Below are positions 5,530 to 60,192 of a DNA stretch of 63,564 nucleotides, piece by piece (positions within the stretch are counted from its first letter, which is position 1; every line of letters begins with the position of its first letter). Position numbers and translations under genes: made by a program. The notes under the pieces were generated by a model. The model searched no databases. It saw only the letters and a list, made by a program, of their open reading frames with translations, and had not been told where the DNA came from. Source of the DNA: an uncultured Clostridia bacterium (GTDB lineage: Bacteria; UBA6262; WVXT01); the NCBI GenBank assembly GCA_964345635.1, contig CAYFRM010000040.1, positions 1 through 63,564 of the forward strand, given 5' to 3'.

Positions 5530-5530
5530 A

Positions 5531-5593: not shown

Positions 5594-5615
5594 GTGTAGG
5601 GCTTTATGCCCGTAA
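5591..5615 (+). repeat. GTAG-headed REP-like unit GTAGTGTAGGGCTTTATGCCCGTAA
   Basis: GTAG head followed by a small GGGC/GCCC hairpin. Related units occur at 8614-8622, 38161-38305 and 60107-60192. Confidence 0.7.
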
Positions 5616-8584: not shown

Positions 8585-8613
8585 TTTATAGTAAATTTAT
8601 GATTTCTTGTCAA
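8585..8613 (-). promoter_or_regulatory. sigma70 promoter of cstA
   Basis: On the - strand: TTGACA (8613-8608), 17-nt spacer, TATAAA (8590-8585), then a GGAAGG SD before the ATG at 8559. Confidence 0.6.
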
Positions 8614-8657
8614 CTACACTAAACAGATTACAAATTTCAAATTACAGATTACAAACC
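8614..8657 (-). repeat. Heptad array (5 units AATCTGT/AATTTGT/AATTTGA) plus truncated GTAGTGTAG unit
   Basis: The - strand reads ggtttgt aatctgt aatttga aatttgt aatctgt ttAGTGTAG. It starts immediately after the stop of the 946-aa gene. Confidence 0.85.
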
Positions 8658-32384: not shown

Positions 32385-35300
32385 TTATTCTGTGAGGCGA
32401 CGGTAGTACTGTTTAATCAGCTCTTCATAGATTTGGGGATACTTTTCTTTGAGAGCTTCCAGAAGTTCCTGGCGGAATTCCCGGGGTGGTTGATACTCGT
32501 GAGGTTCGGGAATCTCTACGTAACCTTCCCTGAATCCCATCCTCCCTCCCGGAAGCGTCCCTCCCCTCGGCTGCAGGAAACCGACCATAGGCTTTCCTGC
32601 TCTTTTTGCCAGTTCCATCAATTTCCGGGAAGCGGAAGCAAGGCCTTCTTTTCCCTGCGCCAGATAATAGAGCGCTTCTCTCTCTTTTTCCAGGGCAGGC
32701 TCGGTCTTCTTCTCTTCCAATTCTCCCGCAGCCTTATCCATCGCCGAAGAAGCTTTTTCCATGTTAGAGATTATTTCCGGGCCAATGGCGGAAGTCTTTC
32801 CGGAAAGTTCCTCTAACTTCTGTTTCAGTCTTCCCGTGAGGCTTTCCAGGTTTTCCTGTTTTTTCGCCAGATTTTCCAGTTCCCGGAGGTCTTCTTCCTG
32901 GAATACTTCCGTTACTTCCTCTTCGAATTCCAATAACTTTGCAATCTTCTCTTCCCTGTCGCAAAGAGCAACAATCTTCTCTTCCGTTCCCGAAATATCT
33001 CTCTCCTTCCCTTCCCAATTATCCTTTAATGATAGAAGGTTCTTCTCTTGCGGGGTCAACTCTTCTTCATTTTCTTTTTCCTCAGACAACTTGGATAAGG
33101 CAGTTGAAATTTTCTCTTTTTCCTTTTCAATCTCAAGGATGAATTTGTCTACAACTACCAACATACCATTCAGGCCGGCGATACATTCTTTCAATAACTC
33201 TTTTGCCCGGCGAGGAGTCTCCCCGGACAGCTCCCTGAGAACTTCCTCCATTCTCCTTAAAACCCGGGACAGGTTTCCATAGAGAGCGGGATATACCCGT
33301 ATATATTTCAGTTTCCCCTTCAGGTCTTCCTGTAATTCTTTTCCTTCTTTTATCGCCTCCTCTTGTAGCTTAGCCAATTTCTTTAACAGGTCCTCTTGCT
33401 TCTTAAACAAAGCTTCCAGACGTTTTTTATCCAGTCGCTCGGTGCGATCAATCAATTCCTTTTCTTCGGCAATCAGTTTTTCTAATTCCTGGGAATATAC
33501 AGTTGCCTGTTGAGAAAGTTGGGGTAACTTACCAAAAGATGGGACCTGGTTGGCAGCAGCTTGCAGGACGGCCATTGTTGCAGAAAGCGTCTTAAGTAAG
33601 TTCCTGGCTATGTTCAAGGCAGATTCCAGGTCACCCTTAACAATTTTGTCCGCCATCTTTTCTATATCACCGGACATCTCTCCCAACTCCAGACTCTTGA
33701 TTGCATCCTGGTTGATGAATTCCTCGGGCAGAGTTTCCGGAAGCTGGGAGAGACTCTTTGCCAGCTGGGCCATAAGTTTTGAGATTTCCGCCAGGCTCTT
33801 CTTAAGTTCCTCCAGTTTCTGCTTGTCCATTTCTCTTCCCATCTCTTCTAACTTTTGCGTAAGATCTGCTTGACTGTCTAACAATTCCTGGGCTGTTCCC
33901 AGTACGTCGCGCATTTTCTCGTCCTGGAGGAGGTCCTGAGCCAGAAGAGACATCTTTTCCAGTTCGGAAATAATCTCGTCTTGACTATCTTTTACCATTT
34001 CCATATATTCTTTCCTGGCGGCGCCGGAAGCTTTCATCGCTTCGGTAATTCTGGATAAAGCATCTGCCATTTTTTGCTCTTTCAGATATTTTAAGTTCTC
34101 TTCCATGTTTTCATATTCTGAATATACTTGAAAATTGCCCAGGGGGTCGGCTTCCATGCGCGGAAGGAGCTTCTGTAAATAATTGAGCAAATCTTCGGTC
34201 GACTTTTCGACCTTTGCCTGGTCCGCCTGGATGCTTTTCAACTCTTCCACGCCTTTTATTTCCTCCCAGTTCTCTACTCTACTCCTGGCTAGAATCTGGT
34301 CTCCCAGAATACGCAAGATCTCCTCCCGGAAATGGTGCTCCATATCTGCGATCTCTTCATGCTCTTTAATGTAACTGAATACCTCCAGGTAATAGGTTTG
34401 GGAAAGGCTACTTTTCGGCCCGGATATAGCATCGTTGTCCCACGCTTCCAAATAATAACTGATTAGCTCACCGGGGCGCAACGGGAGATTTTCCAGCTCC
34501 CACTGATAGTCGCAGAGTTTCTGCCCCGGCGAAGATTCAAATGTTTCAATCCTCATTCTCTCCGGCTTCATCGACTCATAACTTTCCCCTCTTAACTTCT
34601 GGTATACAAGGTCTACCCGCGTTAAGCCGAAGTCATCGCTCGCCTCGTAAGCAAGTTCAACTCTGCTCTTCTCTGAGACTGTCAGGTCGCAACCAGGGGC
34701 AATAATCTTTATCTGCGGGGGGTTGTCGAGAAGCGTCCTTATGTAATGCCTAATGGGGCGAGGATTCGTATACCCCTGGGCATCCTCCACTTCCACCCAG
34801 TAGACCTTCTCGCCGGTGAGAACCAAATACCCTTTAAGGTACGAATCTCTCTCAATTTTTAGGGGTATTCTCTTCCCATCATCGGTCAGAATGAATCCTC
34901 TTCTTATGGGCTTATTGGCCTGCAAAGTCATATGCACCTGAGTTCCCAGCAACGCCTCAAGGTTCCCGCCGGTCTTCTCCACCTTCAGCTCAGGCAATCC
35001 TGTATAAGAAGGATAGATGTATTCCAGAGAAATGTCTCCCACTTCGGGAAGGATAACTACGCTGATAGAGTAAGCCGGCGTGCGCAAATCTTTCCATTTA
35101 ATAAAATAATCTATCGGTTGAGTAATTCTGGAGAAATTGTAGAAGAAATCACGAATTTCTCCCTGGGGATATGGCTCTCCCAGCATTTTGGCTTTTTGCC
35201 AGTTACCTCCCGAAATCTTATATATTAAATAGGGAGTTCCCCCTCTCTGGAAAATCTCCACTCCGATTCTCTGGCTTTCCCCATGCAACACTTCTACATC

Positions 35301-35903
35301 CCCCGGAATAACCCGCACTATCCGATTCACTTCCTGGTAATCTAAAGGTCTGAATAGCCGGGGAAGTGCAAAGGGAAGAATACGCGGTGGAAAAAAGAGA
35401 AGAAACGAGAAAATAAGAAAGACTGAAAGACTTAAGAAGAAAAGTTTCTTAAGGCGCTTTATGTCTTCTATCTCAAAAGTGCTGACTATTCTCGCCTTTT
35501 GGGAGGTCCTTCTAATGAGTTCGCCAATCAGTGCTTTGGATACGTAGACTTCATCCTCGGAACTCGCCAGGGGAAACAGTTGTATGGAATTTATGAAATC
35601 GTCCTTTAATACGGGATACCTTTTCTGAATTTTGAGAGCAATCTTGCCGTCGGTCAAAGGGGAAAGTAAAGGAATCGCAACAAATTTCGCTAACAGGATA
35701 ATAATGGAAAGAATAAGACCTATCAGTAGAAAGAGGCGCACCTGCGAATTAAAGGAAATTGAATAGTCCAGGACGCTAAAGACTATTACCAGTGCCAACA
35801 GAATGGAAAAAGACAAAAGAATTCCTTCCAGCAAAGCTTTAATTCTTATCCACCTTCTGATCTTACCCATTATTCTAACCAATTGGAAATAGGCGTCGAC
35901 CAT
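32385..35903 (-). CDS. Giant membrane-anchored coiled-coil protein (DUF4175-like), last gene of the MoxR operon
   Basis: 1172 aa. It has 3-4 N-terminal TM helices, a beta-rich middle, about 600 aa of E/K/L-rich helical sequence, and a conserved-looking tail EPHEYQPPREFRQELLEALKEKYPQIYEELIKQYYRRL. Confidence 0.7.
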   Translation of the reverse strand: MVDAYFQLVRIMGKIRRWIRIKALLEGILLSFSILLALVIVFSVLDYSISFNSQVRLFLLIGLILSIIILLAKFVAIPLLSPLTDGKIALKIQKRYPVLKDDFINSIQLFPLASSEDEVYVSKALIGELIRRTSQKARIVSTFEIEDIKRLKKLFFLSLSVFLIFSFLLFFPPRILPFALPRLFRPLDYQEVNRIVRVIPGDVEVLHGESQRIGVEIFQRGGTPYLIYKISGGNWQKAKMLGEPYPQGEIRDFFYNFSRITQPIDYFIKWKDLRTPAYSISVVILPEVGDISLEYIYPSYTGLPELKVEKTGGNLEALLGTQVHMTLQANKPIRRGFILTDDGKRIPLKIERDSYLKGYLVLTGEKVYWVEVEDAQGYTNPRPIRHYIRTLLDNPPQIKIIAPGCDLTVSEKSRVELAYEASDDFGLTRVDLVYQKLRGESYESMKPERMRIETFESSPGQKLCDYQWELENLPLRPGELISYYLEAWDNDAISGPKSSLSQTYYLEVFSYIKEHEEIADMEHHFREEILRILGDQILARSRVENWEEIKGVEELKSIQADQAKVEKSTEDLLNYLQKLLPRMEADPLGNFQVYSEYENMEENLKYLKEQKMADALSRITEAMKASGAARKEYMEMVKDSQDEIISELEKMSLLAQDLLQDEKMRDVLGTAQELLDSQADLTQKLEEMGREMDKQKLEELKKSLAEISKLMAQLAKSLSQLPETLPEEFINQDAIKSLELGEMSGDIEKMADKIVKGDLESALNIARNLLKTLSATMAVLQAAANQVPSFGKLPQLSQQATVYSQELEKLIAEEKELIDRTERLDKKRLEALFKKQEDLLKKLAKLQEEAIKEGKELQEDLKGKLKYIRVYPALYGNLSRVLRRMEEVLRELSGETPRRAKELLKECIAGLNGMLVVVDKFILEIEKEKEKISTALSKLSEEKENEEELTPQEKNLLSLKDNWEGKERDISGTEEKIVALCDREEKIAKLLEFEEEVTEVFQEEDLRELENLAKKQENLESLTGRLKQKLEELSGKTSAIGPEIISNMEKASSAMDKAAGELEEKKTEPALEKEREALYYLAQGKEGLASASRKLMELAKRAGKPMVGFLQPRGGTLPGGRMGFREGYVEIPEPHEYQPPREFRQELLEALKEKYPQIYEELIKQYYRRLTE

Positions 35904-35912
35904 CTTTTCCTC

Positions 35913-38129
35913 TTACATCATACCGCTTCTGCGGCGCACATACCATTCTATGCCCAGCAATATGCACAATATGATAAAAATAGAGGGGTTATTCCACACA
36001 GCCACCACTCTCTTCACCACAGGCTGAGCCTCTCTCGCTTCCGGCAAGCTGATTTCTTCTGTTTTAATGCTACCGATATGAAAATATTTTCCTCCCGTTA
36101 AATCCGCCAGTTCTCGCAAAAGAGGTTCGTTCAGTTGAGCATTTTCCCACTCCAGAGAAGGAATTGCCACTTTACAGGAAACAGTGTCCCTGCCCAGAAC
36201 CCTTGAACCTTCCCGGGCTGTAGCAGTAAATGTATACTTTCCTTCCTTCCCGGACAAATAATCGGTTCCATATTCTCCCCGTCTCTCTTTTGGTGCAGCG
36301 CTTCCCAGATCAATCCTCGTTCCTGAAGGATCTACCAATTGTAAATAGACCCGCGCATGTTCACTCGGCCTATAATATCGGTCAAACACTGTCGCAGACA
36401 AAAGAATCTTTTCTCCTTTTGTATAGTTTTCCTTATCCGTACTTAGATGTACGAGTTTCAATTGGGGAGATTTCACCAGCCAGTGAACCGCCTGATGCCA
36501 GAACCGTTCATAGTGGGAACCTGTGCCGCCTCGCGCCCGGGCCTGAAAACGCCAGCGCCAGGTGCTGTTGGAAGCCACACTCATTACTCTTCCCTTGCCT
36601 TTTTCCCAAACGGCAACTATCACTAGATTTCCGTATTTGTTTTTAACTAAAGGGTGGACTCCCAAAACTATGGCTTCAGGCTTCGGCCTCAATAGACGAT
36701 TGCAGCCATCCAACTCCGGCATTGCTGCCCATATCTTGCTATTTTCTCCCGGGTTGTCCGATAATTTCAGTATCGGATGCGTGGTTTCTCGGGCCAGCAT
36801 TTTGAACTCTCCCTCTATAATGTTTCCGCTTACGTCCTCCATTTCCACCGGCAATATCTCTTCCACGGGTGTTCCCTTATATCTTCCCCGGGCAAAGGAG
36901 TTATCTCCTCCTATCATCAGAAAGCCTCCCCCCGTTTCCATGACAAATTTTCGAATGTTTTCCAGATACGTTTTGGGAATCCCGAACCGGGTATAGGTAA
37001 AGTTTTCGAAAATAAGTAAATCGAAGTTGAATATCTGTTTAGTAAATATCTCTGTTGTAGGAAAAGGAATCAAGGAGAGCTGATTCTCCGGAACCAGGGA
37101 GATATTTTCGGGATTGCGCAAAATTATAAAAGAGACAAGTTCTATGCCCGGGTCGCTTTTCAAAGCAGTCCGCAAGAATTTGTATTCCCAGCTTGGCTGC
37201 CCACAGATGTAGAGAATCCTGATCTTGTCCCGCAGCACCTGGAGTGTGAAATCTTTTCTATTATTGGCAAAAGAGATTTCCCCACTATAAGAGGGAAGGG
37301 AAACCGTATAGTGGGAAGAGCCTGGCGAGCGGGGAGTGAAGTGCAAACTCAAAGTGACTTCATTTTCCCCTTCCGGCAGGCGAATTTTCTTTGTCTGGAG
37401 TATTTCCGCCTCCTTCTTCAAAATAACCGATATCTCCTTATTTTCGAATCCGTAGCTTTTTATCTTTACCCCTATTTCCGTAGGAATATTCTTGAACACA
37501 AAATCGCTAACTTGAACTTCGGAAATTTGCAGGTCCTTGAATTTTTGTGGATTACCCACGCCTACGGGAAAAATGGGAGCGCCAATCTTTTCCGTCACCA
37601 GAAGGGGATCTATTCCCGAATTATGAGCTCCGTCCGTAAGGAGAAAAATTCCCCCCAGTCTCTGGCCGCGAAGTTCTTCTTCCAAACCACCCAGAGCCTG
37701 GCCGATATCCGTCGCTTTTCCCTGCGGAACCGACTGCAGCAGTTCTTCCGTCGTAGCCCGCCTGAAGGTGGAGGCGAAAGCGAAGAAGAGAAGATTGTAT
37801 CTCTCTTTTAATCCTTCCACCAGAGGACCCTTTAGAAATTCTTTGACCACAGAGAACCGGGAAACGGGATCTTTCACTCCCATGCTGCCGGAATCATCTA
37901 TCAAAAAAGCGACGTTTGTCTGCTCATCCGGCTTTTCCTGTATAGTTTTTACCGGCTCAAGCAGAAGAAATACTAAAAGGAGATAAATCAACAACCTCAG
38001 GACAAAAAATAGACTTTTTCTTTTCCCTATCCGTTTGAAATTCCAATATAATAGAACCGCCAGGACAAGGATGGTAGCCATTATCAGCCACAGTCTATTA
38101 GGGTCTAAAGAAAAACGGAGAGCACCCAT
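35913..38129 (-). CDS. Membrane protein with vWA domain and class-I glutamine-amidotransferase-like domain
   Basis: 738 aa. Two N-terminal TM helices, MIDAS motif AFLIDDSGSMG, a later IRILYICGQPSWEYKFL...FLMIGGDNSF segment (GATase1-like fold), and a C-terminal TM. Confidence 0.7.
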   Translation of the reverse strand: MGALRFSLDPNRLWLIMATILVLAVLLYWNFKRIGKRKSLFFVLRLLIYLLLVFLLLEPVKTIQEKPDEQTNVAFLIDDSGSMGVKDPVSRFSVVKEFLKGPLVEGLKERYNLLFFAFASTFRRATTEELLQSVPQGKATDIGQALGGLEEELRGQRLGGIFLLTDGAHNSGIDPLLVTEKIGAPIFPVGVGNPQKFKDLQISEVQVSDFVFKNIPTEIGVKIKSYGFENKEISVILKKEAEILQTKKIRLPEGENEVTLSLHFTPRSPGSSHYTVSLPSYSGEISFANNRKDFTLQVLRDKIRILYICGQPSWEYKFLRTALKSDPGIELVSFIILRNPENISLVPENQLSLIPFPTTEIFTKQIFNFDLLIFENFTYTRFGIPKTYLENIRKFVMETGGGFLMIGGDNSFARGRYKGTPVEEILPVEMEDVSGNIIEGEFKMLARETTHPILKLSDNPGENSKIWAAMPELDGCNRLLRPKPEAIVLGVHPLVKNKYGNLVIVAVWEKGKGRVMSVASNSTWRWRFQARARGGTGSHYERFWHQAVHWLVKSPQLKLVHLSTDKENYTKGEKILLSATVFDRYYRPSEHARVYLQLVDPSGTRIDLGSAAPKERRGEYGTDYLSGKEGKYTFTATAREGSRVLGRDTVSCKVAIPSLEWENAQLNEPLLRELADLTGGKYFHIGSIKTEEISLPEAREAQPVVKRVVAVWNNPSIFIILCILLGIEWYVRRRSGMM

Positions 38130-38149
38130 AGTTAACTCCCTCTTAACAG

Positions 38150-38305
38150 AACGTAATCCCAGTGTGGCCCTTTACCCCGTTAGAAATTCCCCCAAGAGAA
38201 TTTCTAACGTCCATTTCTAACGGGGTTTATGGGCGTCCCGATTTATCGGGACGGGGACAAGCCCCTACACTACAAAACCATTACGGGCGTAAAGCCCTGC
38301 ACCAC
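38150..38305. repeat. Composite structured repeat: 59-bp core (38167-38225) plus additional GTAG-type units and a hairpin
   Basis: The core is 57/59 identical to 60118-60176. CCCTACACTAC occurs at 38263-38273 and TTACGGGCGTAAAGCCCTGCACCAC at 38281-38305. Hairpin GTCCCGA-TTTA-TCGGGAC at 38236-38253. Confidence 0.85.
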
Positions 38306-38315
38306 GAAAGTTTGT

Positions 38316-39089
38316 TCAGGGTGCGGTCTTACGAATTTTCAATTTTTGTTGAATATACGGTTGATGAATGGCATCCCTTTTATACGTGCCGGTCAGAGAA
38401 TAGATGACAATATTCAAGAAGAGTTTCATTGCTTCCAGTCTCTGCAATTCTCCGCCGGGAACGCATTCGTAAAGCCAGTTTCCTAATCTATCCCTCACCC
38501 ACGTTCCTCCCAGGTCATTCCGGGAGTAGATTACCACTGTTTCACCGTCGACATCTATGCCTTCCAGATAAGGACTGCCTACTCTACGGCCAACCACGCC
38601 GGGCGATAGATAAAACGAACGAAAAACCGCGTGGTCCGGGAGCAGTCTTTTTAGTTTCTCTTCCGGGAAAAGCCTTTCCATTTCCCTCAGCACTGCCCTG
38701 TTAAATCCCGGATCTCTCCCTCCCGAAGCATCGTCAATTAACAGCAGGCCTCCGCAGGATAAATAACGCCTGAGATTCTCTATTTCTTGCGCAGCGAAGG
38801 GGGCAAATTCCTCCCTGCCGCTCATATACAGAAAAGGAGAGAAAAAAAGTTCCGCATCGCTCAATGACAACTCTCTTCTCGCTCTTTGAGCCTTCACACT
38901 GGTAGTTGTCGTCAGGTAATGGAGAATCTCCTTATACGCAGTGGGGTAAGGGTCCCAATCTCCTCCTTTATACCGCAATTGGCTGAACACAAACCTGTCC
39001 CTCTGCTCGGCCGGAAGAGGACTGGCAATCAAACTGCAAACAACCATAGCTATAACGAGTAGCGAGCCTGACTTCTTATCTGCCATCAC
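38316..39089 (-). CDS. Secreted DUF4159-like protein
   Basis: 257 aa. Signal peptide, FVFSQLRYKGGDWDPYPTA motif as I remember it for DUF4159, and LLLIDDASGG. Confidence 0.65.
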   Translation of the reverse strand: MMADKKSGSLLVIAMVVCSLIASPLPAEQRDRFVFSQLRYKGGDWDPYPTAYKEILHYLTTTTSVKAQRARRELSLSDAELFFSPFLYMSGREEFAPFAAQEIENLRRYLSCGGLLLIDDASGGRDPGFNRAVLREMERLFPEEKLKRLLPDHAVFRSFYLSPGVVGRRVGSPYLEGIDVDGETVVIYSRNDLGGTWVRDRLGNWLYECVPGGELQRLEAMKLFLNIVIYSLTGTYKRDAIHQPYIQQKLKIRKTAP

Positions 39090-41272
39090 AAACTACCTTT
39101 TCCCCGTGGATTCGCCAGAAACACTTCTAAGAGTAAAAATCCTACTAAGACAAAAGTCAAATTCTTGGATATTTCCTTCCCGTATAAGAGTTGTAAGATA
39201 TCCTTTTCCAAATTCGCCAGCTCATCGATTATCTTAATCGGGGCAGCGGGAAAAAGTTTCTTTATCTCTTTAGTTCCTATTTTGTCCAGGTTAGACTCAT
39301 TGCTTTCTATATCGAGGTTAACAGCCAGGTATTCGTTATTCCATTTTCTATTGCTTGTGTACGACAGCCGGTAGATACCGGGCGTCTCCACAGGGCCAAA
39401 TTCTATACCCGAGAAATCTCTGTTCTGAACGGGAATCACGGAAAACTTTTTCCCCTGAGGGTTGATTATTTCCACAGACGAGGGTAATGCTCCCGGACCC
39501 AGTTCATAGCGTATCTCCTCACCAACAAGAAAAGCACTGCCGGGTTCCCCCCTCGAGGTACAGAGGGCCATATAATCAACCATCCGCTGGAGCAAAGGTA
39601 AAAAGACGGGTTTGGCAGGCAGGTTATTCCAGTCCCGGTCTAAAGTAGAAGTGAACAGAAACACCTTGCCTGCTCCGGGGTAGGGCAGTTCGCCTTCTAT
39701 AAGTAGAGGTATATCGCCGGCAAGACCGAGAACTATCTTTGCCGATGGTTTAACCCGGGTGGCGAAGTATCGGTAGAAACTTGCCCGGGTTAAATCTCCC
39801 TCTTTCCCCCGTCCAAAAACTTTAAGGACAGGGTGAGCAAAGTCCTGAAAACCAATTGTCTTGAGTTCTTTTTCTCCTTTAGCTTTCCCTTTAACCTCTA
39901 TCAGCTCAGCTGGCAGGAGATCGCCAAAAACAAGATTATATTCTTGAGGGTTAACGTTATCGCCGAGGCTGAAGACTACCCCCCTTCCTTCCCGCACAAA
40001 ACCGGTGAGTCTGCCTGTTAAGGAGCTGGTAACCTTTCCCACATTGGCCAGAAAGACTACGGAAAAATCATCCAATTTCTCCCGGAAAAACTCATCCACC
40101 GTTACCACCTTCACCGCCAGCGATGACTGAATAGGGGAAACTTCTGAGGTGGTCGGTGAAAGGCTGAGCGACAAATAGAATGTCTCGCTGGAAAAAGCGG
40201 AAATTCCCGGATGCCCATCAACCAGGAGTACCTTGATCTTCTTCGACGCTTCCGTTATAAAGTAGAATCTATTATCGGAAGGGAGATTATCTTCCTGAAT
40301 CTCTACCTTTCCCAGATAGGTTCCCTCTTCGGGGAAATTATAGAAAAAATCCTTAGTGGTCTCTCTCGCTGCTTTTAAATCCATGAAGCCCTGGCCCACT
40401 TTCTCTTGACTTTCTTTACCAATTTGAAACCTGCCCGGGGATTCCAGAAAAACTGAAACAAATAGACGGGGAATGTTCTCTTTAGAATAATTTCTTATTT
40501 TAGACGATATTTCGGAAGTCTCCCCTATGGTCAGCCGGCGACAACCGACTCCGGACACCGCAATATTGGGAAGCGATTCCCTGTTCAAATCGATAACAAT
40601 AAAGTTCATTTCCGGGTCGAACTCCTTTATACTCTTTTCATCAATTCCCTGCCACCCGTTAATTCCCAAATCCGTAATCAGGATAATTTCTCTATTTGGT
40701 GATGCGGACTCCCGGAGAATTTTATACCCCTCGGAGATACCGGGAAGGAGATTCGTAGGACGGAAACTCAAAATACCTTCCTCCAGCCTCTCCCGGAGAA
40801 TCTGTTTGTCGTCAGTGAGATAAGAGACCAAAGGCTTAACTTCGTCGGAAATCAAAAAGATTGCGGCGCGGTCACCTCTTTTGCTCATTTCAATAATGCG
40901 TCTTGCCACCTTTTTGGCCAGAGCAAAGCGGGTTTCTCCTTCTTCCACGTATCCCATGGAATAAGAATTGTCGATGAGAATTACACTGGAGCGCGAGACG
41001 CCTTCCGCCTGCGCAAACAGAGGCATTCTCCTCACCACGGGCCTGGCGAAAAGAAGAGTTAACAGGAGAAGAATGAGAGACCTCAATATAAGTAAGAGTA
41101 GCTGCTTCAATTTGAACTTTCTTACTACCGTTGTGGAGGCTAATTGAATAAACCTGACAGAAGAAAATTGGGAAGTTACCGGTCTTCTGCGGGAGAGGAG
41201 ATGGATAAGTAGGGGAACGGAAACTACCGGCAATCCCCACAAGAATGACGGATTCAAAAATGTTACGTTCAT
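39086..41272 (-). CDS. BatA-type N-terminal double-TM protein with vWA domain
   Basis: 728 aa. FLNPSFLWGLPVVSVPLLIHLLSRRRP (aerotolerance-regulator N-terminal type), MIDAS motif VILIDNSYSMGY, and a C-terminal TM anchor. Confidence 0.75.
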   Translation of the reverse strand: MNVTFLNPSFLWGLPVVSVPLLIHLLSRRRPVTSQFSSVRFIQLASTTVVRKFKLKQLLLLILRSLILLLLTLLFARPVVRRMPLFAQAEGVSRSSVILIDNSYSMGYVEEGETRFALAKKVARRIIEMSKRGDRAAIFLISDEVKPLVSYLTDDKQILRERLEEGILSFRPTNLLPGISEGYKILRESASPNREIILITDLGINGWQGIDEKSIKEFDPEMNFIVIDLNRESLPNIAVSGVGCRRLTIGETSEISSKIRNYSKENIPRLFVSVFLESPGRFQIGKESQEKVGQGFMDLKAARETTKDFFYNFPEEGTYLGKVEIQEDNLPSDNRFYFITEASKKIKVLLVDGHPGISAFSSETFYLSLSLSPTTSEVSPIQSSLAVKVVTVDEFFREKLDDFSVVFLANVGKVTSSLTGRLTGFVREGRGVVFSLGDNVNPQEYNLVFGDLLPAELIEVKGKAKGEKELKTIGFQDFAHPVLKVFGRGKEGDLTRASFYRYFATRVKPSAKIVLGLAGDIPLLIEGELPYPGAGKVFLFTSTLDRDWNNLPAKPVFLPLLQRMVDYMALCTSRGEPGSAFLVGEEIRYELGPGALPSSVEIINPQGKKFSVIPVQNRDFSGIEFGPVETPGIYRLSYTSNRKWNNEYLAVNLDIESNESNLDKIGTKEIKKLFPAAPIKIIDELANLEKDILQLLYGKEISKNLTFVLVGFLLLEVFLANPRGKGSL

Positions 41273-41275
41273 TTC

Positions 41276-42172
41276 TCACCTTAACATTTTTCTTCTGGCA
41301 AGGTAGGCTCCCAGGGCAAAATCGAGAGGAGTTTTTGTGTTAATAAGACAATAATCTATATCGCTTCTCAGGCAACTCAACTTGTACTTTTCCACAAATT
41401 CTTTTACCACCCTCTTATACCTGTCCCGGATAATCGCCGGATGAGTAAGAACTCTCTTTCCGTTCTCCATATCCTCCAGCCAGAGAACGTTATTAAATGG
41501 AAGTTCCATCTCCGCGGGATCGAGAAGGTGAAAGACGATCACTTCGTGTTTCTTGAACCGGAAGTACTTCAGACCGTTCACAACCCTCTCCTGTTCGTCC
41601 AGGAGATCAGAAATCAGAATAATCAATCCCCGTCGCTTGGTATATTGCCCCAGCTCCCGGAGAGCGCGATTTATTCCCGTGGCGGAAGATGAAACCAGTC
41701 TCTCCAGCTCGTCCAGAATTAGCGAAAGATGGCCTTTGCTCTGCCGGGGAGGAATATAAGTTTTAATCTTCTCATCGAAAGTGGCCAGTCCCACCGAATC
41801 CTGTTGTCTGAGCATAAGGTAAGCCAAGGAGGCCGCTAAATAGGAGCCGTATTGAAGCTTACTTATTCCTTTGCTCACGTATCCCATGGAGGCGCTTCTG
41901 TCAAGGAGAATATATCCCTTCAAGTTTGTCTCTTCCTGATATTGTTTCACGAAATACTTATCTTTCCTTCCGTAGACTTTCCAATCTACGTGTCTGGTTT
42001 CGTCCCCCGGGGAGTATTCCCTGTGCTGCGCAAACTCCAGACTAAAACCTCTATAAGGGCTCTGGTGCAGTCCGGCGATAAATCCCTCAACCACAAATCT
42101 CGCTCTCAGAAGCATAGTCGAAAGCCTGGCCACAATCAGGGGGTCTATATAACCTCTCTTTCTCTCTTCCAT
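41276..42172 (-). CDS. DUF58 protein (vWA-like, MoxR partner)
   Basis: 298 aa. GFSLEFAQHREYSPGDETRHVDWKVYGR and ILLDRSASMGY motifs. Confidence 0.85.
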   Translation of the reverse strand: MEERKRGYIDPLIVARLSTMLLRARFVVEGFIAGLHQSPYRGFSLEFAQHREYSPGDETRHVDWKVYGRKDKYFVKQYQEETNLKGYILLDRSASMGYVSKGISKLQYGSYLAASLAYLMLRQQDSVGLATFDEKIKTYIPPRQSKGHLSLILDELERLVSSSATGINRALRELGQYTKRRGLIILISDLLDEQERVVNGLKYFRFKKHEVIVFHLLDPAEMELPFNNVLWLEDMENGKRVLTHPAIIRDRYKRVVKEFVEKYKLSCLRSDIDYCLINTKTPLDFALGAYLARRKMLR

Positions 42173-42200
42173 TTCTAACTCCTATCGCCGCCTGCCAAAA

Positions 42201-43205
42201 TCAGGATTCCGGAACTGTTTTCAATAACTTGTCTATTACCTGATCGGTGCGCACGCCTTCCGCCTCGGCGTTAAAGTTGAGTATGATGCGGTGCCGCAGG
42301 ACTGGGTGAGCTAATGCTTTTATGTCTTCTACCGAGACGTTGAAGCGCCCATTAAGAATAGCCCTTGCCTTTCCCCCCAGGATCAAGTTTTGCGAACCCC
42401 TGGGGCTTCCTCCCCAACTGACCCACTTTTTGATGAATTCCGGAGCCTGGGATGAAGATGGTCGGGTAGCTGTCACCAAATTTACCGCATAGTTGACAAC
42501 GTACTCGGAAGCGGGAACTTTTCGCACAATCTCCTGCAAATGGATTATCTCTTTAGCATTTAGAGCTTTTATTAACTTCGTCTGGAAACTGGAGGTGGTT
42601 TTGGCAACGATTTCTTTCTCTTCTTCGTACCCGGGGTAGTCGATGTTCACTTCAAAGAAGAAACGGTCGAGCTGCGCTTCCGGCAAGGGATACGTTCCTT
42701 CCTGCTCAATGGGATTCTGGGTAGCCAGGACGAAAAAAGGAAGTTCTAAAGGGTAAGTATTTCCGCTGGCAGTAACCTTGTACTCCTGCATCGCCTGCAG
42801 GAGAGCGGACTGTGTTTTGGGAGGAGTACGATTAATCTCGTCTGCCAGGATTATGTTGGCAAAGACGGGTCCCTTGATGAAACGGAAACTTCTTTTTCCT
42901 GTAGAAATATTCTCTTCAATCACATCTGTTCCCGTAATATCAGAAGGCATAAGATCCGGCGTAAACTGGATTCTCTGGAATTTTAAGTCGAGAATTTCGG
43001 CAATTGTGGAAATTAACATTGTCTTGGCCAGACCAGGCACCCCCACAATCAGACAATGGCCGCGGGCAAAAAGAGCGATCAGAACCTGTTCGATCACTTC
43101 ATCCTGCCCCACAATTATCTTATGGAGCTCCTCCAGAATCGATTTACGGCCTTGCGCTAATTTCTCTACCAACTTCAAGTCTTCCTTGTCATCGGGCTTA
43201 ATCAT
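42201..43205 (-). CDS. moxR: MoxR-family AAA+ ATPase
   Basis: 334 aa. Walker A GVPGLAKT, Walker B IILADEINR, and ATQNPIEQEGTYPLPEAQLDRF. Confidence 0.9.
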   Translation of the reverse strand: MIKPDDKEDLKLVEKLAQGRKSILEELHKIIVGQDEVIEQVLIALFARGHCLIVGVPGLAKTMLISTIAEILDLKFQRIQFTPDLMPSDITGTDVIEENISTGKRSFRFIKGPVFANIILADEINRTPPKTQSALLQAMQEYKVTASGNTYPLELPFFVLATQNPIEQEGTYPLPEAQLDRFFFEVNIDYPGYEEEKEIVAKTTSSFQTKLIKALNAKEIIHLQEIVRKVPASEYVVNYAVNLVTATRPSSSQAPEFIKKWVSWGGSPRGSQNLILGGKARAILNGRFNVSVEDIKALAHPVLRHRIILNFNAEAEGVRTDQVIDKLLKTVPES

Positions 43206-43234: not shown

Positions 43235-43263
43235 ATTATACCCCATTTTTTCCCTATTTTCAA
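43235..43263 (-). promoter_or_regulatory. sigma70 promoter of the MoxR operon
   Basis: On the - strand: TTGAAA (43263-43258), 17-nt spacer, TATAAT (43240-43235), then a GAGGAGGA SD before the ATG at 43205. Confidence 0.6.
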
Positions 43264-43288: not shown

Positions 43289-43479
43289 CTAATCAGAAGA
43301 TAGATTGTTCATTACCAGGTAATTTCTTAACGCCAAAAAACTCCGGGCTCTGCAGGGCGCAAAAATAAACTCCCCCCGATTCATCGGGGCTCAGACAAAT
43401 TTTTGCTTGAAAGAAAAATAGTCGCCCTTGCTTTTTGACTAAAATTCCCAAGGTTCTTCACAATCTATCTTCTGATTAG
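43289..43479. repeat. 191-bp element bounded by perfect 20-bp inverted repeats (MITE-like or long-range stem)
   Basis: CTAATCAGAAGATAGATTGT at 43289-43308 and ACAATCTATCTTCTGATTAG at 43460-43479. Confidence 0.8.
43361..43389 (-). terminator. Intrinsic terminator downstream of xerD
   Basis: The - strand has hairpin CCCCGA-TGAA-TCGGGG followed by GGAGTTTATTTTT. On the + strand a weaker T tract also follows the hairpin. Confidence 0.5.
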
Positions 43480-60103: not shown

Positions 60104-60192
60104 AAATCTGTAGCGTAGCCCTTTACCCCGTTAGAAATTCCCCCAAGAGAATCTCTAACATCCATTTCTAACGGGGTAAAGCCCTACACTAC
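60104..60192. repeat. REPIN-like inverted doublet of GTAG-headed units around a 25-nt spacer
   Basis: Left arm AATCTGTAGCGTAGCCCTTTACCCCGTTAGAAAT. Right arm ATTTCTAACGGGGTAAAGCCCTACACTAC. The 18-bp perfect stem CTTTACCCCGTTAGAAAT/ATTTCTAACGGGGTAAAG can form. The 59-bp core 60118-60176 is 57/59 identical to 38167-38225. Confidence 0.85.

What the first reader, a model, noticed from the sequence alone, without database searches (positions are those of the whole stretch)
32385..43205. Six-gene MoxR / DUF58 / triple-vWA / DUF4159 / giant coiled-coil envelope operon with no known mechanism
**Seen in the sequence**
- Six co-directional genes follow a near-consensus promoter (TTGAAA-17-TATAAT, 43235-43263).
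- Junctions in order are a 28-nt gap, a 3-nt gap, a 4-nt overlap, a 186-nt gap (filled by a repeat element) and a 9-nt gap.
- Gene 1 is a MoxR AAA+ ATPase (GVPGLAKT, IILADEINR).
- Three different proteins each carry a DxSxS MIDAS motif: DUF58 (DRSASM), the BatA-type double-TM protein (DNSYSM) and the 738-aa protein (DDSGSM).
- Most of the non-ATPase components appear envelope-localised. Three carry predicted TM helices and the DUF4159-like protein has a signal peptide. No TM or signal was noted for DUF58.
- The 738-aa protein also has a GATase1-like segment. The last gene is a 1172-aa coiled-coil protein.

**Established knowledge**
- MoxR ATPases work with vWA partners as remodelling or metal-insertion chaperones (RavA-ViaA, NorQ-NorD, CbbQ-CbbO).
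- The Bacteroides Bat operon is linked genetically to aerotolerance.
- To my knowledge no mechanism is known for that operon or for the DUF4159/DUF4175-containing variant seen here.

**Inference**
- This is an ATP-remodelled, membrane-anchored multi-vWA scaffold.
- It is the best candidate in the window for an undescribed cell-envelope machine.
Basis: partly seen in the sequence, partly recalled or inferred. Interest (0 to 1): 0.7.

Follow-up and report, generated by a model that had tools for sequence, protein, structure and literature searches.

The report
Conserved MoxR–vWA cell-envelope gene cluster
This is a real, widely conserved gene cluster pairing a cytoplasmic ATP-driven remodelling enzyme with large periplasmic scaffold proteins; its core is already linked genetically to cell-envelope integrity in Rhizobium, but how it works is still unknown.

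Summary
The TTGAAA-N17-TATAAT promoter occurs once in the window. It recurs, also once, upstream of moxR in a relative at about 72% protein identity.

The cluster is not an undescribed machine. Genes 1-5 match the alphaproteobacterial four-gene operon of RL3499-RL3502 type. That operon consists of MoxR, DUF58, a BatA_N…DUF4159 fusion and a GATase1_like protein, and published work ties it to envelope integrity and cell shape.

New points:
- The 728-aa and 738-aa proteins are full-length paralogs.
- Their "GATase1-like" part lacks the expected cysteine nucleophile. The best fold match in the PDB is OST48, the GIFT-domain subunit of eukaryotic oligosaccharyltransferase.
- DUF4159 is often fused to the BatA-type protein.
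- A seventh component was missed: a secreted TPR/HExxH metallopeptidase at 29732-31354. It co-occurs with DUF4175 next to moxR in loci carrying several other phylum-level labels.
- Elusimicrobia-labelled loci carry TPR/GT-C glycosyltransferases in that place instead.

Best reading: cytoplasmic MoxR-DUF58 remodels an inner-membrane-anchored periplasmic vWA/GIFT scaffold that docks TPR-bearing envelope enzymes. The mechanism is inferred, not shown. I rate it a new variant of a known kind, of moderate interest.

The parts
43235..43263 (-). Sigma-70-type promoter TTGAAA-17-TATAAT, with a GGAGG Shine-Dalgarno sequence before the moxR ATG
   Evidence: It matches 11 of 12 consensus positions and is the best site in the region. 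It is the only match in the window, with 0.00 expected. The same hexamers and spacing occur once in L089, directly upstream of its moxR.
43374..43389 (-). Terminator-like hairpin ending the upstream xerC/D-like integrase unit; it marks the 5' limit of the cluster
   Evidence: The hairpin CCCCGATGAATCGGGG is followed by a T-rich tail. The integrase assignment comes from Pfam.
42201..43205 (-). g1: MoxR AAA+ ATPase of the MRP type, 334 aa, cytoplasmic
   Evidence: AAA_3 scores 208.6 bits and AAA_lid_2 61.6 bits. Walker A GVPGLAKT and Walker B IILADEINR are present. The closest solved structure is 2r44, E = 5e-86.
41276..42172 (-). g2: DUF58 protein, a vWA-like MoxR partner, 298 aa, with no TM segment or signal peptide
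   Evidence: DUF58 scores 173.3 bits and VWA_2 gives E = 5e-10. D91, S93, S95 and D189 are conserved in at least 90% of 21 homologs. No solved relative was found by sequence.
39086..41272 (-). g3: long BatA-type protein, 728 aa. Its layout is a TM hairpin (BatA_N), a periplasmic MIDAS-vWA domain, a β-sandwich, a GIFT/GATase1-like module and a C-terminal TM segment.
   Evidence: BatA_N and VWA_2 hits and TIGR02226. It is a full-length paralog of g5 by hhalign: probability 99.9, E = 2e-33, 652 columns. The middle region of family members hits DUF7408, ThuA, ABC_transp_aux and IFT52_GIFT weakly.
38316..39089 (-). g4: secreted DUF4159 protein, 257 aa, overlapping g3 by 4 nt
   Evidence: DUF4159 scores 144.2 bits. 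The solved homolog is 4i66, E = 5e-42. It has an N-terminal signal-like segment. Many homologs carry RRxF Tat-type signals. It is fused to the BatA-type protein in 7 of 25 family members and in about 18 of the 150 best family representatives.
38130..38315 (-). Structured 186-nt spacer holding a dispersed palindromic repeat (core 38161-38226)
   Evidence: A copy 94% identical lies at 60112-60177. The spacer RNA folds at -72 kcal/mol, z = -3.86. There is no Rfam match. The repeat is absent from the equivalent 168-nt spacer of L089.
35913..38129 (-). g5: 738-aa paralog of g3. Its layout is a TM hairpin, a periplasmic MIDAS-vWA domain, a β-sandwich, a GATase1_like (GIFT/OST48-like) module, an MG2-like β-sandwich and a C-terminal TM segment.
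   Evidence: Pfam hits. The MIDAS residues are invariant. The AF2 model has pLDDT 82. The top Foldseek hit in the PDB is 6s7t_G, which is OST48: E = 1.2e-10, TM-score 0.39 normalised by target. A homolog lies next to DUF4159 in 63 of 70 loci.
32385..35903 (-). g6: DUF4175 protein, 1172 aa. It has three TM helices with a roughly 70-aa loop placed in the cytoplasm by the positive-inside rule. These are followed by an Ig-like β-sandwich array, about 600 aa of helical hairpins and a conserved C-terminal YYRRL tail.
   Evidence: DUF4175 scores 63.7 bits. The AF2 model has pLDDT 81. Foldseek returns only generic Ig/MG arrays. Homologs sit next to moxR clusters in L001, L005, L014, L024, L025, L030, L049 and L091.
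It is separated from g6 by a GMP-synthase ATP-PPase subunit gene (31380-32315).
   Evidence: TPR and Peptidase_MA_2 hits. A signal peptide is present, and HEFVH followed by NEGLAKYYE, with H210, E211, H214 and E231 conserved in 10 of 10 homologs. A homolog lies directly upstream of moxR in L001, L002, L005, L014, L025, L030, L047, L049 and L091, and nearby in L024. The same arrangement as in the window is seen in L089.

Best explanation
The locus encodes a seven-component envelope system of the MRP-type MoxR family. It extends the alphaproteobacterial RL3499-RL3502-type operon.

**Shown**
- A cytoplasmic MoxR ATPase and its DUF58 (vWA-like) partner are encoded with two paralogous inner-membrane proteins, g3 and g5.
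- Each paralog has a TM hairpin, a MIDAS-vWA domain, β-sandwiches, a GIFT/OST48-like module without the nucleophile, and a C-terminal TM anchor.
- Also encoded are a secreted DUF4159 protein, a DUF4175 protein and a secreted TPR/HExxH metallopeptidase.

**Inferred**
- g3, g4 and g5 form a heteromeric platform anchored in the inner membrane and facing the periplasm.
- DUF4175 adds an elongated periplasmic arm.
- The TPR enzyme is the docked effector or client. Here it is a gluzincin peptidase; in Elusimicrobia-labelled loci it is a GT-C glycosyltransferase.
- MoxR-DUF58 uses ATP on the cytoplasmic face to assemble the platform or switch its conformation. Candidate contact points are the Arg/Lys-rich BatA_N loop, the short C-terminal tails with a conserved Glu, and the DUF4175 loop.
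- The periplasmic MIDAS sites hold acidic residues of partners.
- The physiological output is maintenance of cell-envelope integrity and shape.
For: **Family assignments and motifs**
-.

**Conservation of the gene set**
- The five-gene core occurs in loci labelled Elusimicrobia, Tectimicrobiota and Sumerlaeota, and in "Deltaproteobacteria" MAGs. A Nitrospinota-labelled locus carries a permuted set in which tblastn found no g3 homolog.
- DUF4175 and the TPR peptidase lie next to moxR in two different gene orders. This argues for a functional link rather than inherited synteny.

**Physical association**
- g3 and g5 are full-length paralogs.
- g3-g4 fusions recur. They keep TM3 plus a signal-like segment ending in AxA, so DUF4159 stays periplasmic.
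- DUF4159 and g5 homologs are adjacent in 63 of 70 loci.

**Topology**
- The positive-inside rule places the large domains in the periplasm.
- Homologs of g4 carry Tat or Sec signals.
- Experiments put the vWA domain of the BatA-like protein BB0173 in the periplasm (PMC5700661).

**Fold of the middle module**
- g5 resembles OST48.
- g3-family members weakly hit the GIFT, ThuA and GldG-type families.

**Accessory enzymes**
- GT-C/TPR genes directly follow the cluster in seven Elusimicrobia-labelled loci.

**Phenotype**
- The homologous Rhizobium operon is reported as important for membrane integrity and cell morphology (PMC3893208).
- RL3499, RL3500 and RL3501 show growth defects on TY medium (PMC5118466 and PMC4255674).

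**MoxR-vWA precedent**
- NorQD, RavA-ViaA and CbbQO are established MoxR-vWA remodelling pairs (titles and abstracts listed).
Against: - No protein-protein interaction was tested or modelled here.
- MoxR and DUF58 are cytoplasmic, while nearly all mass of the other five proteins is periplasmic. Only short loops and tails are available for coupling.
- The BatA_N loop of g3 contains no acidic residue that could serve as a MIDAS ligand.
- In 30 of 30 Myxococcota-labelled loci with enough upstream sequence, the DUF4159-g5 pair has no moxR or DUF58 within about 10 kb upstream. The periplasmic pair may therefore work without the ATPase, or the ATPase is encoded elsewhere.
- g7 is separated from g6 by an unrelated guaA-subunit gene.
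- The 186-nt structured spacer may split transcription.
- The OST48 match is structural only: TM-score 0.39, with no profile signal.
- The Rhizobium phenotype comes from papers that cite the original study. That study could not be read.
- That the Rhizobium locus examined here is RL3499-RL3502 is inferred from gene content, not from locus tags.
Confidence: 0.45

Rival explanations
1. Glycan or lipid-linked-sugar handling platform. The GIFT/OST48-like modules of g3 and g5, and perhaps DUF4159, bind polyprenyl-linked or polymeric envelope glycans. They would act as non-catalytic subunits for periplasmic glycosyl transfer or cell-wall precursor handling, as OST48/Wbp1 is proposed to do in oligosaccharyltransferase. 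MoxR-DUF58 would only assist assembly.
For: - The best PDB fold match of g5 is OST48.
- GIFT domains are proposed to bind sugars or lipid-linked oligosaccharide (PMC7226087).
- One to four TMEM260-like/PMT_2 GT-C glycosyltransferase genes directly follow the g5 homolog in seven Elusimicrobia-labelled loci, with a 4-nt overlap in L022.
- From my recollection of the primary abstract, the Rhizobium mutants swell on glycine- or peptide-rich media. That would fit a cell-wall defect.
Against: - tblastn found no GT-C gene in the window, nor in the fetched clusters from loci not labelled Elusimicrobia.
- The accessory enzyme here is a peptidase.
- The OST48 similarity is moderate and structural only.
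- Sugar binding by GIFT domains is itself only a proposal.
Confidence: 0.15
2. Dedicated cofactor- or metal-insertion (maturation) chaperone, like NorQ-NorD, CoxD-CoxE or CbbQ-CbbO. MoxR and a vWA partner would activate one specific enzyme, and the other genes would be incidental membrane partners.
For: - MoxR-vWA pairs with MIDAS motifs are the hallmark of those systems (abstracts).
- An MRP-subfamily MoxR from Synechococcus shows general chaperone activity (PMC11432383 abstract).
Against: - No candidate metalloenzyme target is conserved next to the cluster. The flanks are recA, xerC-like, hisD, guaA-subunit and Fe-ADH genes, and they differ between lineages.
- Two of the three vWA domains are predicted to be periplasmic, out of reach of a cytoplasmic AAA+ ring.
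Confidence: 0.1
3. Bat-type (Bacteroides aerotolerance) oxidative-stress system. The cluster would protect against oxygen or oxidative stress, as first proposed for batA-E.
For: - It shares MoxR, DUF58, the BatA_N double-TM domain with vWA, and a TPR protein with Bat operons (PMC5700661).
- Riemerella moxR mutants are stress-sensitive (PMC11834572 abstract).
Against: - No BatD-family or BatE-type (TPR+SH3) protein was found among the seven proteins or their flanks.
- g3 and g5 are about twice the length of BB0173, the BatA-like protein mapped in PMC5700661, and carry extra modules.
- DUF4159, GATase1_like and DUF4175 are not listed among the Bat-region domains in PMC5700661.
- Both PMC3557215 and PMC5700661 state that no specific function or mechanism has been demonstrated for Bat proteins.
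Confidence: 0.08
4. Threat-sensing or conflict system, like the MoxR-vWA-β-propeller ternary systems or the P. aeruginosa arc2 (PA4317-23) antagonism-defence cluster. The periplasmic scaffold would sense envelope attack and MoxR-vWA would transduce the signal.
For: - g1 also hits the Pfam bpMoxR model at 46 bits.
- arc2 contains a MoxR-like ATPase and a VWF protein and protects against interbacterial antagonism (bioRxiv 10.1101/2021.08.22.457286).
- An Esr pathway built on MoxR and vWA senses epibionts (bioRxiv 10.64898/2026.09.08.750141).
Against: - AAA_3 scores far higher than bpMoxR, 208 against 46 bits.
- The cluster has no β-propeller sensor, effector, kinase or FHA component.
- PADLOC gave only marginal hits: DolB and IetA for g1 and JetC for g6, E about 1e-4 to 9e-4, 17-19 bits.
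- The locus sits in stable housekeeping synteny (recA … Fe-ADH) in a relative at about 72% identity. It does not sit in a variable island.
Confidence: 0.07
5. Not one machine. The genes are two or three independent units: moxR-DUF58-g3-g4; g5-g6; and the guaA subunit with the TPR peptidase. They would be adjacent because almost all genes in this window are co-directional.
For: - A 186-nt structured spacer separates g4 from g5.
- An unrelated gene lies between g6 and g7.
- Genes from 6.7 to 63.5 kb are nearly all on the minus strand.
- Myxococcota-labelled loci encode the DUF4159-g5 pair without moxR nearby.
Against: - The same families recur together in loci with several phylum-level labels and in a different gene order.
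- DUF4159-g5 adjacency spans exactly the spacer in question in 63 of 70 loci.
- g3-g4 fusions and g3/g5 paralogy tie the two halves together.
- No terminator-like site was found in the spacer or after g6.
Confidence: 0.1

Closest known systems
Rhizobium leguminosarum RL3499-RL3502 operon (Vanderlinde et al. 2011, J Bacteriol 193:2684; MRP-subfamily MoxR)
   Same: - The order is MoxR, DUF58, BatA_N-type membrane protein with DUF4159, then GATase1_like membrane protein.
- g5 matches the Rhizobium 689-aa protein at E = 2e-37 over about 500 residues, with DxSxS retained.
- The middle of g3 aligns to the 937-aa protein at E = 3e-6.
- The Rhizobium operon is reported as important for membrane integrity and cell morphology (PMC3893208).
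   Different: - Here the BatA_N…DUF4159 protein is split into two genes, g3 and g4.
- Here g3 keeps a clear MIDAS-vWA. Pfam detects no VWA in the Rhizobium fusion, and the equivalent motif reads DNSWA.
- DUF4175 and the TPR metallopeptidase are added here. Neither lies within 9 kb in the Rhizobium or Sinorhizobium loci.
- I could not confirm the RL locus tags directly. The strain and record differ, and the primary paper is not held.
Bacteroides/spirochaete Bat (aerotolerance) operon: moxR, DUF58, batA-E
   Same: - A MoxR plus DUF58 core.
- The BatA_N double-TM domain followed by a periplasmic MIDAS-vWA. Topology was shown for BB0173 (PMC5700661).
- TPR partner proteins.
   Different: - No BatD and no SH3/TPR BatE.
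- g3 and g5 are about 730 aa and carry β-sandwich and GIFT-like modules.
- DUF4159, DUF4175 and a peptidase domain are present here.
NorQ-NorD, RavA-ViaA and CbbQ-CbbO (characterised MoxR-vWA remodelling pairs)
   Same: An AAA+ MoxR ring is paired with a MIDAS-vWA adaptor. This is the likely logic of g1-g2.
   Different: - Those systems act on soluble or membrane enzymes from the same compartment.
- Here two further vWA domains are predicted to lie across the membrane, and no enzyme client is evident.
- The adaptor is DUF58, which has no solved structure by sequence search.
OST48/DDOST (Wbp1), the GIFT-domain subunit of eukaryotic oligosaccharyltransferase
   Same: - The g5 model matches OST48 over 420 alignment columns. 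By its domain order, the matching part of g5 would be the Rossmann-like module, the β-sandwich and the C-terminal TM anchor on the non-cytoplasmic side.
- A GT-C enzyme partner is seen in Elusimicrobia-labelled clusters.
   Different: - No detectable sequence homology.
- g5 additionally has an N-terminal TM hairpin and a vWA domain.
- No GT-C gene is present in this window.
Structural-genomics entries 4i66 (Hoch_4089, DUF4159), 2gk3/3soz (STM1381, GATase1_like), 4rck (vWA of a membrane protein) and 2r44 (MoxR)
   Same: They are direct sequence relatives of g4, g5, g3 and g1.
   Different: They are deposited under names such as uncharacterized or putative protein, with no function stated in the molecule name. 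Each is an isolated domain.

Membership tests
MoxR AAA+ ATPase, MRP subfamily | AAA_3-type AAA+ core with Walker A and B motifs and an AAA lid | tested here: met
   AAA_3 scores 208.6 bits and AAA_lid_2 61.6 bits. GVPGLAKT and IILADEINR are present. 2r44 matches at E = 5e-86.
MoxR AAA+ ATPase, MRP subfamily | Operon partner genes for a DUF58 protein and one or more vWA proteins (the Snider & Houry 2006 criterion, as restated in PMC12067865) | tested here: met
   The DUF58 gene starts 28 nt downstream, followed by the vWA genes g3 and g5. The criterion is quoted.
vWA domain with a functional MIDAS | DxSxS plus downstream Thr and Asp metal ligands, conserved among homologs | tested here: met
   g5 has D78, S80, S82, T140 and D166 invariant in 38 sequences. 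g3 and g2 have DxSxS and the distal Asp conserved in at least 90%, but the Thr is not conserved. Metal binding itself was not tested.
RL3499-RL3502-type envelope operon (Alphaproteobacteria) | Four modules in order: MoxR, DUF58, BatA_N…DUF4159 membrane protein, GATase1_like membrane protein | tested here: met
   All four modules are present in the same order. The third is split into g3 and g4. The fused and split forms are linked by homologs.
RL3499-RL3502-type envelope operon (Alphaproteobacteria) | Loss causes envelope-integrity and cell-shape defects | not testable with these tools
   This is a phenotype known only for Rhizobium, from citing papers. The organism of the window is an uncultured MAG lineage.
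Bat (Bacteroides aerotolerance) operon | BatA/BatB vWA proteins with the BatA_N double-TM domain | tested here: met
   g3 hits BatA_N at 59.9 bits and TIGR02226 at 63.7 bits.
Bat (Bacteroides aerotolerance) operon | BatD-family protein and TPR/SH3 BatC/BatE proteins in the cluster | tested here: not met
   No BatD or SH3 hit was found in the seven proteins or the flanking genes. The only TPR protein carries a Peptidase_MA_2 domain.
MoxR-vWA-β-propeller ternary conflict systems (bpMoxR) | A dedicated bpMoxR clade ATPase with a vWA protein, a β-propeller sensor and effector domains | tested here: not met
   bpMoxR scores 46 bits against 208 bits for AAA_3. The cluster has no β-propeller or effector. 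PADLOC gave only marginal hits, E about 1e-4 to 9e-4.
Class I glutamine amidotransferase (the enzyme) | Cys nucleophile at the elbow after the fourth β-strand, with a His/Glu pair | tested here: not met
   The position I take as the elbow, from the AF2 strand order and not from a structural superposition, reads GGGFLMIGGDN in g5, GRGVVFSLGDN in g3 and CGGLLLIDDAS in g4. None has a conserved Cys. The database name "glutamine amidotransferase" for g5 homologs is therefore probably a misnomer.
GIFT / OST48-like module | Rossmann-like GIFT domain followed by a β-sandwich and a C-terminal TM anchor | tested here: inconclusive
   Foldseek gives 6s7t_G (OST48) at E = 1.2e-10, TM-score 0.39, 420 columns. 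g3-family members give weak hits to IFT52_GIFT, ABC_transp_aux and ThuA. Profile comparison with the OST48 sequence is not significant.
Gluzincin (MA clan) metallopeptidase: g7 | HExxH plus a downstream Glu zinc ligand, conserved | tested here: met
   HEFVH at 210-214 and E231 in NEGLAKYYE are conserved in 10 of 10 homologs. Peptidase_MA_2 scores 37.6 bits against a cutoff of 32.4. Activity was not tested.
DUF4175 family | Match to PF13779 above the gathering score, with N-terminal TM helices | tested here: met
   It scores 63.7 bits against a cutoff of 27.3, mainly over profile positions 510-806. Three TM helices are predicted.

The most novel reading that the evidence does not exclude
The system is a new kind of trans-membrane energy coupling. 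A cytoplasmic AAA+ ring (MoxR with DUF58) pulls or twists the TM hairpins and tails of two integrin-like, MIDAS-bearing proteins. This switches a periplasmic vWA/GIFT platform between states, as in integrin inside-out activation. The platform then gates the docking or activity of TPR-tagged envelope enzymes: a metallopeptidase here and GT-C glycosyltransferases in Elusimicrobia-labelled loci. ATP would thus be made to do work in the ATP-free periplasm by a route distinct from TonB/Tol, Lol/Lpt or FtsEX.
Probability: 0.15. Interest if true: 0.85.

Novelty: new variant of a known kind. Interest (0 to 1): 0.42.

Why it matters
MRP-type MoxR/DUF58/vWA operons are widespread. DUF4159 alone has 3,408 clusters at 50% identity with E ≤ 1e-3. 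Published phenotypes cover envelope integrity, stress tolerance and virulence in Rhizobium, Francisella and Riemerella, and aerotolerance in Bacteroides. No mechanism is known for any of them.

The anatomy worked out here turns a list of DUFs into specific experiments:
- two paralogous vWA/GIFT-like membrane proteins;
- a DUF4159 partner that is often fused to one of them;
- interchangeable TPR-enzyme accessories;
- a DUF4175 arm.

The experiments that follow are to find who binds whom, which MIDAS site binds which acidic ligand, and whether cytoplasmic ATP hydrolysis is transmitted to the periplasm.

The work also shows that the database names for g5 homologs ("glutamine amidotransferase") and for the BatA domain of g3 ("aerotolerance regulator") are probably misleading.

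Tried and rejected
- **Cyanobacterial origin.** The repeat-rich spacers suggested it, but there are no HIP1 (GCGATCGC) sites. The closest homologs are uncultured MAGs, some labelled Elusimicrobiota.
- **Literature search for "DUF58".** It was swamped by prefix matches such as DUF581, DUF583 and DUF5819. Two papers opened on that basis were irrelevant.
- **Primary Rhizobium paper.** PMC3133104 is not held. I relied on citing papers and, where marked, on my memory of its abstract.
- **Rfam.** No hit over 29-44 kb.
- **PADLOC.** Only marginal hits: DolB and IetA for g1 and JetC for g6, E about 1e-4 to 9e-4.
- **Profile-profile tests.** DUF4159 is not detectably homologous to the GATase1-like modules of g3 or g5 (probability below 10%). 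Neither g3, g4 nor g5 is detectably homologous to OST48. A common fold may hold, but these tests do not show it.
- **Foldseek on the g6 model.** It returned only generic Ig/MG-domain arrays such as complement C3, α2-macroglobulin and NCAM. Nothing informative came back for the helical region.
- **Brocadia loci.** DUF4159 stands alone there, so it is not always clustered.
- **Nannocystis locus.** The genes upstream of the DUF4159-g5 pair are unrelated.
- **Intergenic alignment with relative L089.** No conservation of the spacer repeat. Promoter conservation was recovered only by pattern search.
- **One neighbourhood look-up.** P0124 was not on record.

Full report
**1. Observation**

| Gene | Coordinates | Length | Family evidence |
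|---|---|---|---|
| g1 | 42201-43205 | 334 aa | MoxR, AAA_3 208.6 bits |
| g2 | 41276-42172 | 298 aa | DUF58 173.3 bits; VWA_2 |
| g3 | 39086-41272 | 728 aa | BatA_N and TIGR02226; VWA_2 |
| g4 | 38316-39089 | 257 aa | DUF4159 144.2 bits |
| g5 | 35913-38129 | 738 aa | GATase1_like 42.6 bits; weaker VWA and MG2 |
| g6 | 32385-35903 | 1172 aa | DUF4175 63.7 bits |

- The quoted Walker motifs, the three DxSxS motifs and the hydrophobic segments are all present.
- The junctions are +28, +3, -4, +186 and +9 nt.
- The MIDAS residues of g5 (D78, S80, S82, T140, D166) are invariant in 38 homologs.
- DxSxS and the distal Asp are conserved in at least 90% of g3 and g2 homologs.
- TTGAAA-17-TATAAT at 43263-43235 is the best promoter-like site in the region. 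It is the only such site in the window, with 0.00 expected.
- The same hexamers and spacing occur exactly once in the 23.5-kb locus L089, at 2580-2608 just upstream of its moxR. The expectation there is 0.01. L089 comes from a relative whose g6 is 72% identical. The rest of that intergenic region does not align. I take the promoter as real.
- The 186-nt spacer contains a 66-nt palindromic repeat with a 94% copy at 60112-60177. It folds strongly, z = -3.9, and has no Rfam match.

**2. Origin and surroundings**

- The closest homologs are from uncultured MAGs, some labelled Elusimicrobiota. Identity is 93% for g4 and 90% for g6.
- The organism probably has an outer membrane. An Omp85-barrel protein lies at 8658-11498 and an alginate-export-type porin at 1546-2748.
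- Upstream lie pgpA, recA, a metallo-β-lactamase-fold gene and a xerC/D-like integrase. The integrase unit ends in a terminator-like hairpin at 43389-43374.
- Downstream, still co-directional, lie three genes:
  - a GMP-synthase ATP-PPase subunit gene (31380-32315);
  - a 540-aa TPR/Peptidase_MA_2 protein (29732-31354);
  - an Fe-alcohol dehydrogenase gene.
- The whole arrangement from recA to Fe-ADH is syntenic in L089. The locus is housekeeping-like, not an island.

**3. A seventh component**

- In a Tectimicrobiota-labelled locus, in two unlabelled genome or metagenome loci and in several "Deltaproteobacteria" MAGs, the gene order is hisD, DUF4175, TPR/Peptidase_MA_2, MoxR, DUF58, BatA-vWA, DUF4159, GATase1_like. 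A Nitrospinota-labelled locus carries a permuted version.
- The window has a cyclic permutation of this order. DUF4175 and the TPR peptidase follow g5 instead of preceding moxR.
- Linkage that survives rearrangement argues that DUF4175 and the TPR peptidase belong to the system.
- The window's TPR protein, g7, has a signal peptide. It has HEFVH followed by NEGLAKYYE, and H210, E211, H214 and E231 are conserved in all 10 homologs. It is probably an active periplasmic gluzincin.

**4. How tightly the genes are linked**

I scanned GTDB representative genomes with a DUF4159 alignment. I then ran tblastn with the window proteins against the 80 loci returned.

| Test | Result |
|---|---|
| g5 homolog immediately downstream of DUF4159, in loci with at least 2.5 kb downstream | 63 of 70 |
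| MoxR and DUF58 upstream, in loci with at least 4.5 kb upstream | 12 of 55 |
| – Elusimicrobia-labelled | 7 of 7 |
| – "Deltaproteobacteria" MAGs | 4 of 8 |
| – Myxococcota-labelled | 0 of 30 |

- The DUF4159-g5 pair is the tightest unit.
- The link to the ATPase depends on lineage, at least at the level of gene neighbourhood.
- DUF4159 is a large family. It has 3,408 clusters at 50% identity with E ≤ 1e-3 and 1,169 with E ≤ 1e-10.

**5. Relation to the known Rhizobium operon**

- R. leguminosarum and S. meliloti records carry four genes in order:
  - MoxR;
  - DUF58;
  - a 937-aa protein with BatA_N at the N-terminus and DUF4159 at the C-terminus;
  - in the R. leguminosarum record, a 689-aa GATase1_like protein. 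The incomplete PLSDB gene table lists no gene at that position in S. meliloti.
- g5 matches the 689-aa protein at E = 2e-37 over about 500 residues.
- The middle of g3 matches the 937-aa protein at E = 3e-6.
- This fits the published RL3499-RL3502 operon. It is described as important for membrane integrity and cell morphology (PMC3893208).
- RL3499, RL3500 and RL3501 show TY-medium growth defects in transposon-sequencing studies (PMC5118466 and PMC4255674).
- The primary paper (Vanderlinde 2011) is not held. Details of its phenotypes that I give elsewhere rest on my memory of its abstract.
- I could not check the locus tags. The identity of the locus I examined with RL3499-RL3502 is inferred from gene content.
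That is not met. The core of the cluster is nonetheless already known genetically.

**6. New anatomy**

- **g3 and g5 are paralogs.** hhalign gives probability 99.9, E = 2e-33, over 652 columns, from the TM hairpin to the C-terminal TM segment.
- **The g5 model.** The AF2 model has pLDDT 82. It has these parts:
  - two TM helices;
  - a vWA fold at about 60-190;
  - a β-sandwich at 199-299;
  - a Rossmann-like module at 303-550;
  - a second β-sandwich at 560-655;
  - a C-terminal TM helix at 715-735.
- **Best fold match.** The top PDB hit is chain G of 6s7t: E = 1.2e-10, 420 columns, TM-score 0.39 normalised by target. I confirmed that this chain is OST48/DDOST.
- **What OST48 is.** It is the GIFT-domain subunit of eukaryotic oligosaccharyltransferase. 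Its GIFT domain is proposed to bind sugars or lipid-linked oligosaccharide (PMC7226087).
- **Sequence-level hints.** g3-family members hit DUF7408, ABC_transp_aux (the GldG family), ThuA, Glyco_hydro_42M and IFT52_GIFT weakly. Direct profile comparison with OST48 is not significant.
- **No nucleophile.** The position I take as the nucleophile elbow of a class I amidotransferase, from the AF2 strand order, carries Gly or Asp in g3, g4 and g5. These are not amidotransferases, despite the database name.
- **DUF4159 fusions.** DUF4159 is fused to the C-terminus of BatA_N-vWA proteins in 7 of 25 g3-family members. About 18 of the best 150 DUF4159 representatives are fusions of that length.
- **Topology of the fusions.** In the Rhizobium and Sinorhizobium fusions, TM3 is followed by a second hydrophobic segment ending LHA|DD or AFA|DD. 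This is the equivalent of g3's last TM segment plus g4's signal peptide. DUF4159 is therefore periplasmic in both forms. Many stand-alone homologs carry RRxF Tat-type signals.
- **The g6 model.** The AF2 model has pLDDT 81. It has these parts:
  - three TM helices, with a roughly 70-residue helical loop (about 81-148) that I place in the cytoplasm by the positive-inside rule;
  - an Ig-like β-sandwich array at 197-508, with an invariant DD in EASDDFGL;
  - about 600 residues of helical hairpins;
  - a disordered Gly-rich linker;
  - a conserved C-terminal helix pair ending in YYRRL.
- **Alternative accessory genes.** In all seven Elusimicrobia-labelled loci with downstream sequence, the g5 homolog is followed directly by one to four TMEM260-like/PMT_2 (GT-C) glycosyltransferase genes, most with TPR repeats. 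In L022 the junction is a 4-nt overlap. None occurs in the window or in clusters from the other loci.

**7. Topology**

- The positive-inside rule puts the Arg/Lys-rich loop between TM1 and TM2 of g3 and g5 in the cytoplasm. It puts their large domains in the periplasm.
- This agrees with experimental mapping of the BatA-like protein BB0173 (PMC5700661).
- MoxR and DUF58 have no export signals.
- The ATPase module and most of the scaffold are therefore on opposite sides of the inner membrane. The following small cytoplasmic elements connect them:
  - the BatA_N loop;
  - the 6-10-residue C-terminal tails, with a conserved Glu at the membrane boundary (E716 in g3, E728 in g5);
  - the g6 loop, which carries a conserved P.L.D.LIN..QL motif.

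**8. Most likely mechanism (inferred)**

- g3, g4 and g5 form a heteromeric periplasmic platform on the inner membrane.
- g6 adds an elongated arm.
- TPR-bearing enzymes dock on the platform. Here that is the g7 metallopeptidase; in Elusimicrobia-labelled loci it is a GT-C glycosyltransferase.
- MoxR-DUF58 spends ATP on the cytoplasmic elements to assemble or switch the platform.
- The output is envelope maintenance, as in the Rhizobium phenotype.
- I put 0.45 on this general picture and much less on any specific contact.

The main weaknesses are these:
- No interaction was tested.
- The cytoplasmic handles are small.
- The g3 loop has no acidic MIDAS ligand.
- Myxococcota-labelled loci encode the pair away from any moxR.
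- An unrelated gene separates g6 from g7.

**9. Rivals**

| Rival | Confidence | Main point |
|---|---|---|
| Glycan or lipid-linked-sugar platform, OST48-like | 0.15 | Fits the fold match and the GT-C neighbours, but no GT-C gene is present here |
| NorQD-like cofactor-insertion chaperone | 0.10 | No conserved client enzyme |
| Separate transcription units adjacent by chance | 0.10 | Contradicted by conservation across differently labelled loci, fusions and paralogy |
| Bat-type oxidative-stress system | 0.08 | BatD and BatE are absent and extra modules are present |
| Conflict or threat-sensing system | 0.07 | bpMoxR is a weak secondary hit, PADLOC hits are marginal, and the locus is in stable synteny |

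**10. Verdict**

- The cluster is a new variant of a known kind. It is a split and extended form (plus DUF4175, plus TPR peptidase) of a genetically characterised but mechanistically unexplained family. That family is the MRP-type MoxR/DUF58/BatA_N-vWA/DUF4159/GATase1_like envelope operon.
- It is not specific to this window. A specialist would not be surprised that it exists.
- Its value is that the mechanism of the whole family remains open, and the anatomy above makes it testable.
- Interest: 0.42.

Noticed in passing
window 8658-11498 (-): A single 946-aa ORF combines Peptidase_MA_2 (N-terminal), PD40/TolB-like β-propeller repeats and a C-terminal Omp85-superfamily barrel. This is an unusual outer-membrane protein architecture. 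It is also the second Peptidase_MA_2 protein in the window.
   Followed up: no
window 5527-5600 and 8612-8653: A tandem array of the heptamer TGTAATC has an inverted copy about 3 kb away. The two bracket the cstA gene at 6922-8559. This could be an invertible or mobile segment, or a regulatory repeat.
   Followed up: no
window 38161-38226 and 60112-60177: A 66-nt palindromic dispersed repeat, 94% identical between the two copies, lies in intergenic spacers. It is absent from the equivalent spacer of relative L089. It looks REP- or MITE-like and has no Rfam family.
   Followed up: partly
window 31380-32315 (-): A stand-alone GMP-synthase ATP-pyrophosphatase subunit (PP-loop plus GMP_synt_C, with no GATase domain) sits between the DUF4175 and TPR-peptidase genes. 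The same placement is seen in L089. I did not look for the glutaminase subunit.
   Followed up: no
L012, L017, L022, L023, L027, L066, L071 (downstream of the GATase1_like gene): Elusimicrobia-labelled clusters continue directly into one to four paralogous TMEM260-like/PMT_2 GT-C glycosyltransferase genes, most with C-terminal TPR repeats. In L022 the junction is a 4-nt overlap.
   Followed up: partly
proteins P0363, P0338 and P0294 (DUF4159 family representatives): DUF4159 occurs in other architectures: FecR plus DUF4159 (716 aa), forms of about 500 aa with two matched DUF4159 stretches, and a 514-aa protein with a weak GATase1_like hit followed by DUF4159.
   Followed up: no
window 6700-63564: Almost every ORF of at least 150 aa from about 6.7 kb to the end of the window is on the minus strand, and GC skew is consistently negative. 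The window probably lies on one replichore with strong gene-strand bias. Co-direction alone therefore says little about operon membership.
   Followed up: no
L003/L004, L013 (Brocadia): In two anammox Brocadia contigs, DUF4159 stands alone among unrelated genes such as radical SAM, LysM and SecDF. In a third Brocadia locus, L013, tblastn found no cluster partner nearby. Other Brocadiia-labelled loci keep the DUF4159-GATase1_like pair.
   Followed up: no
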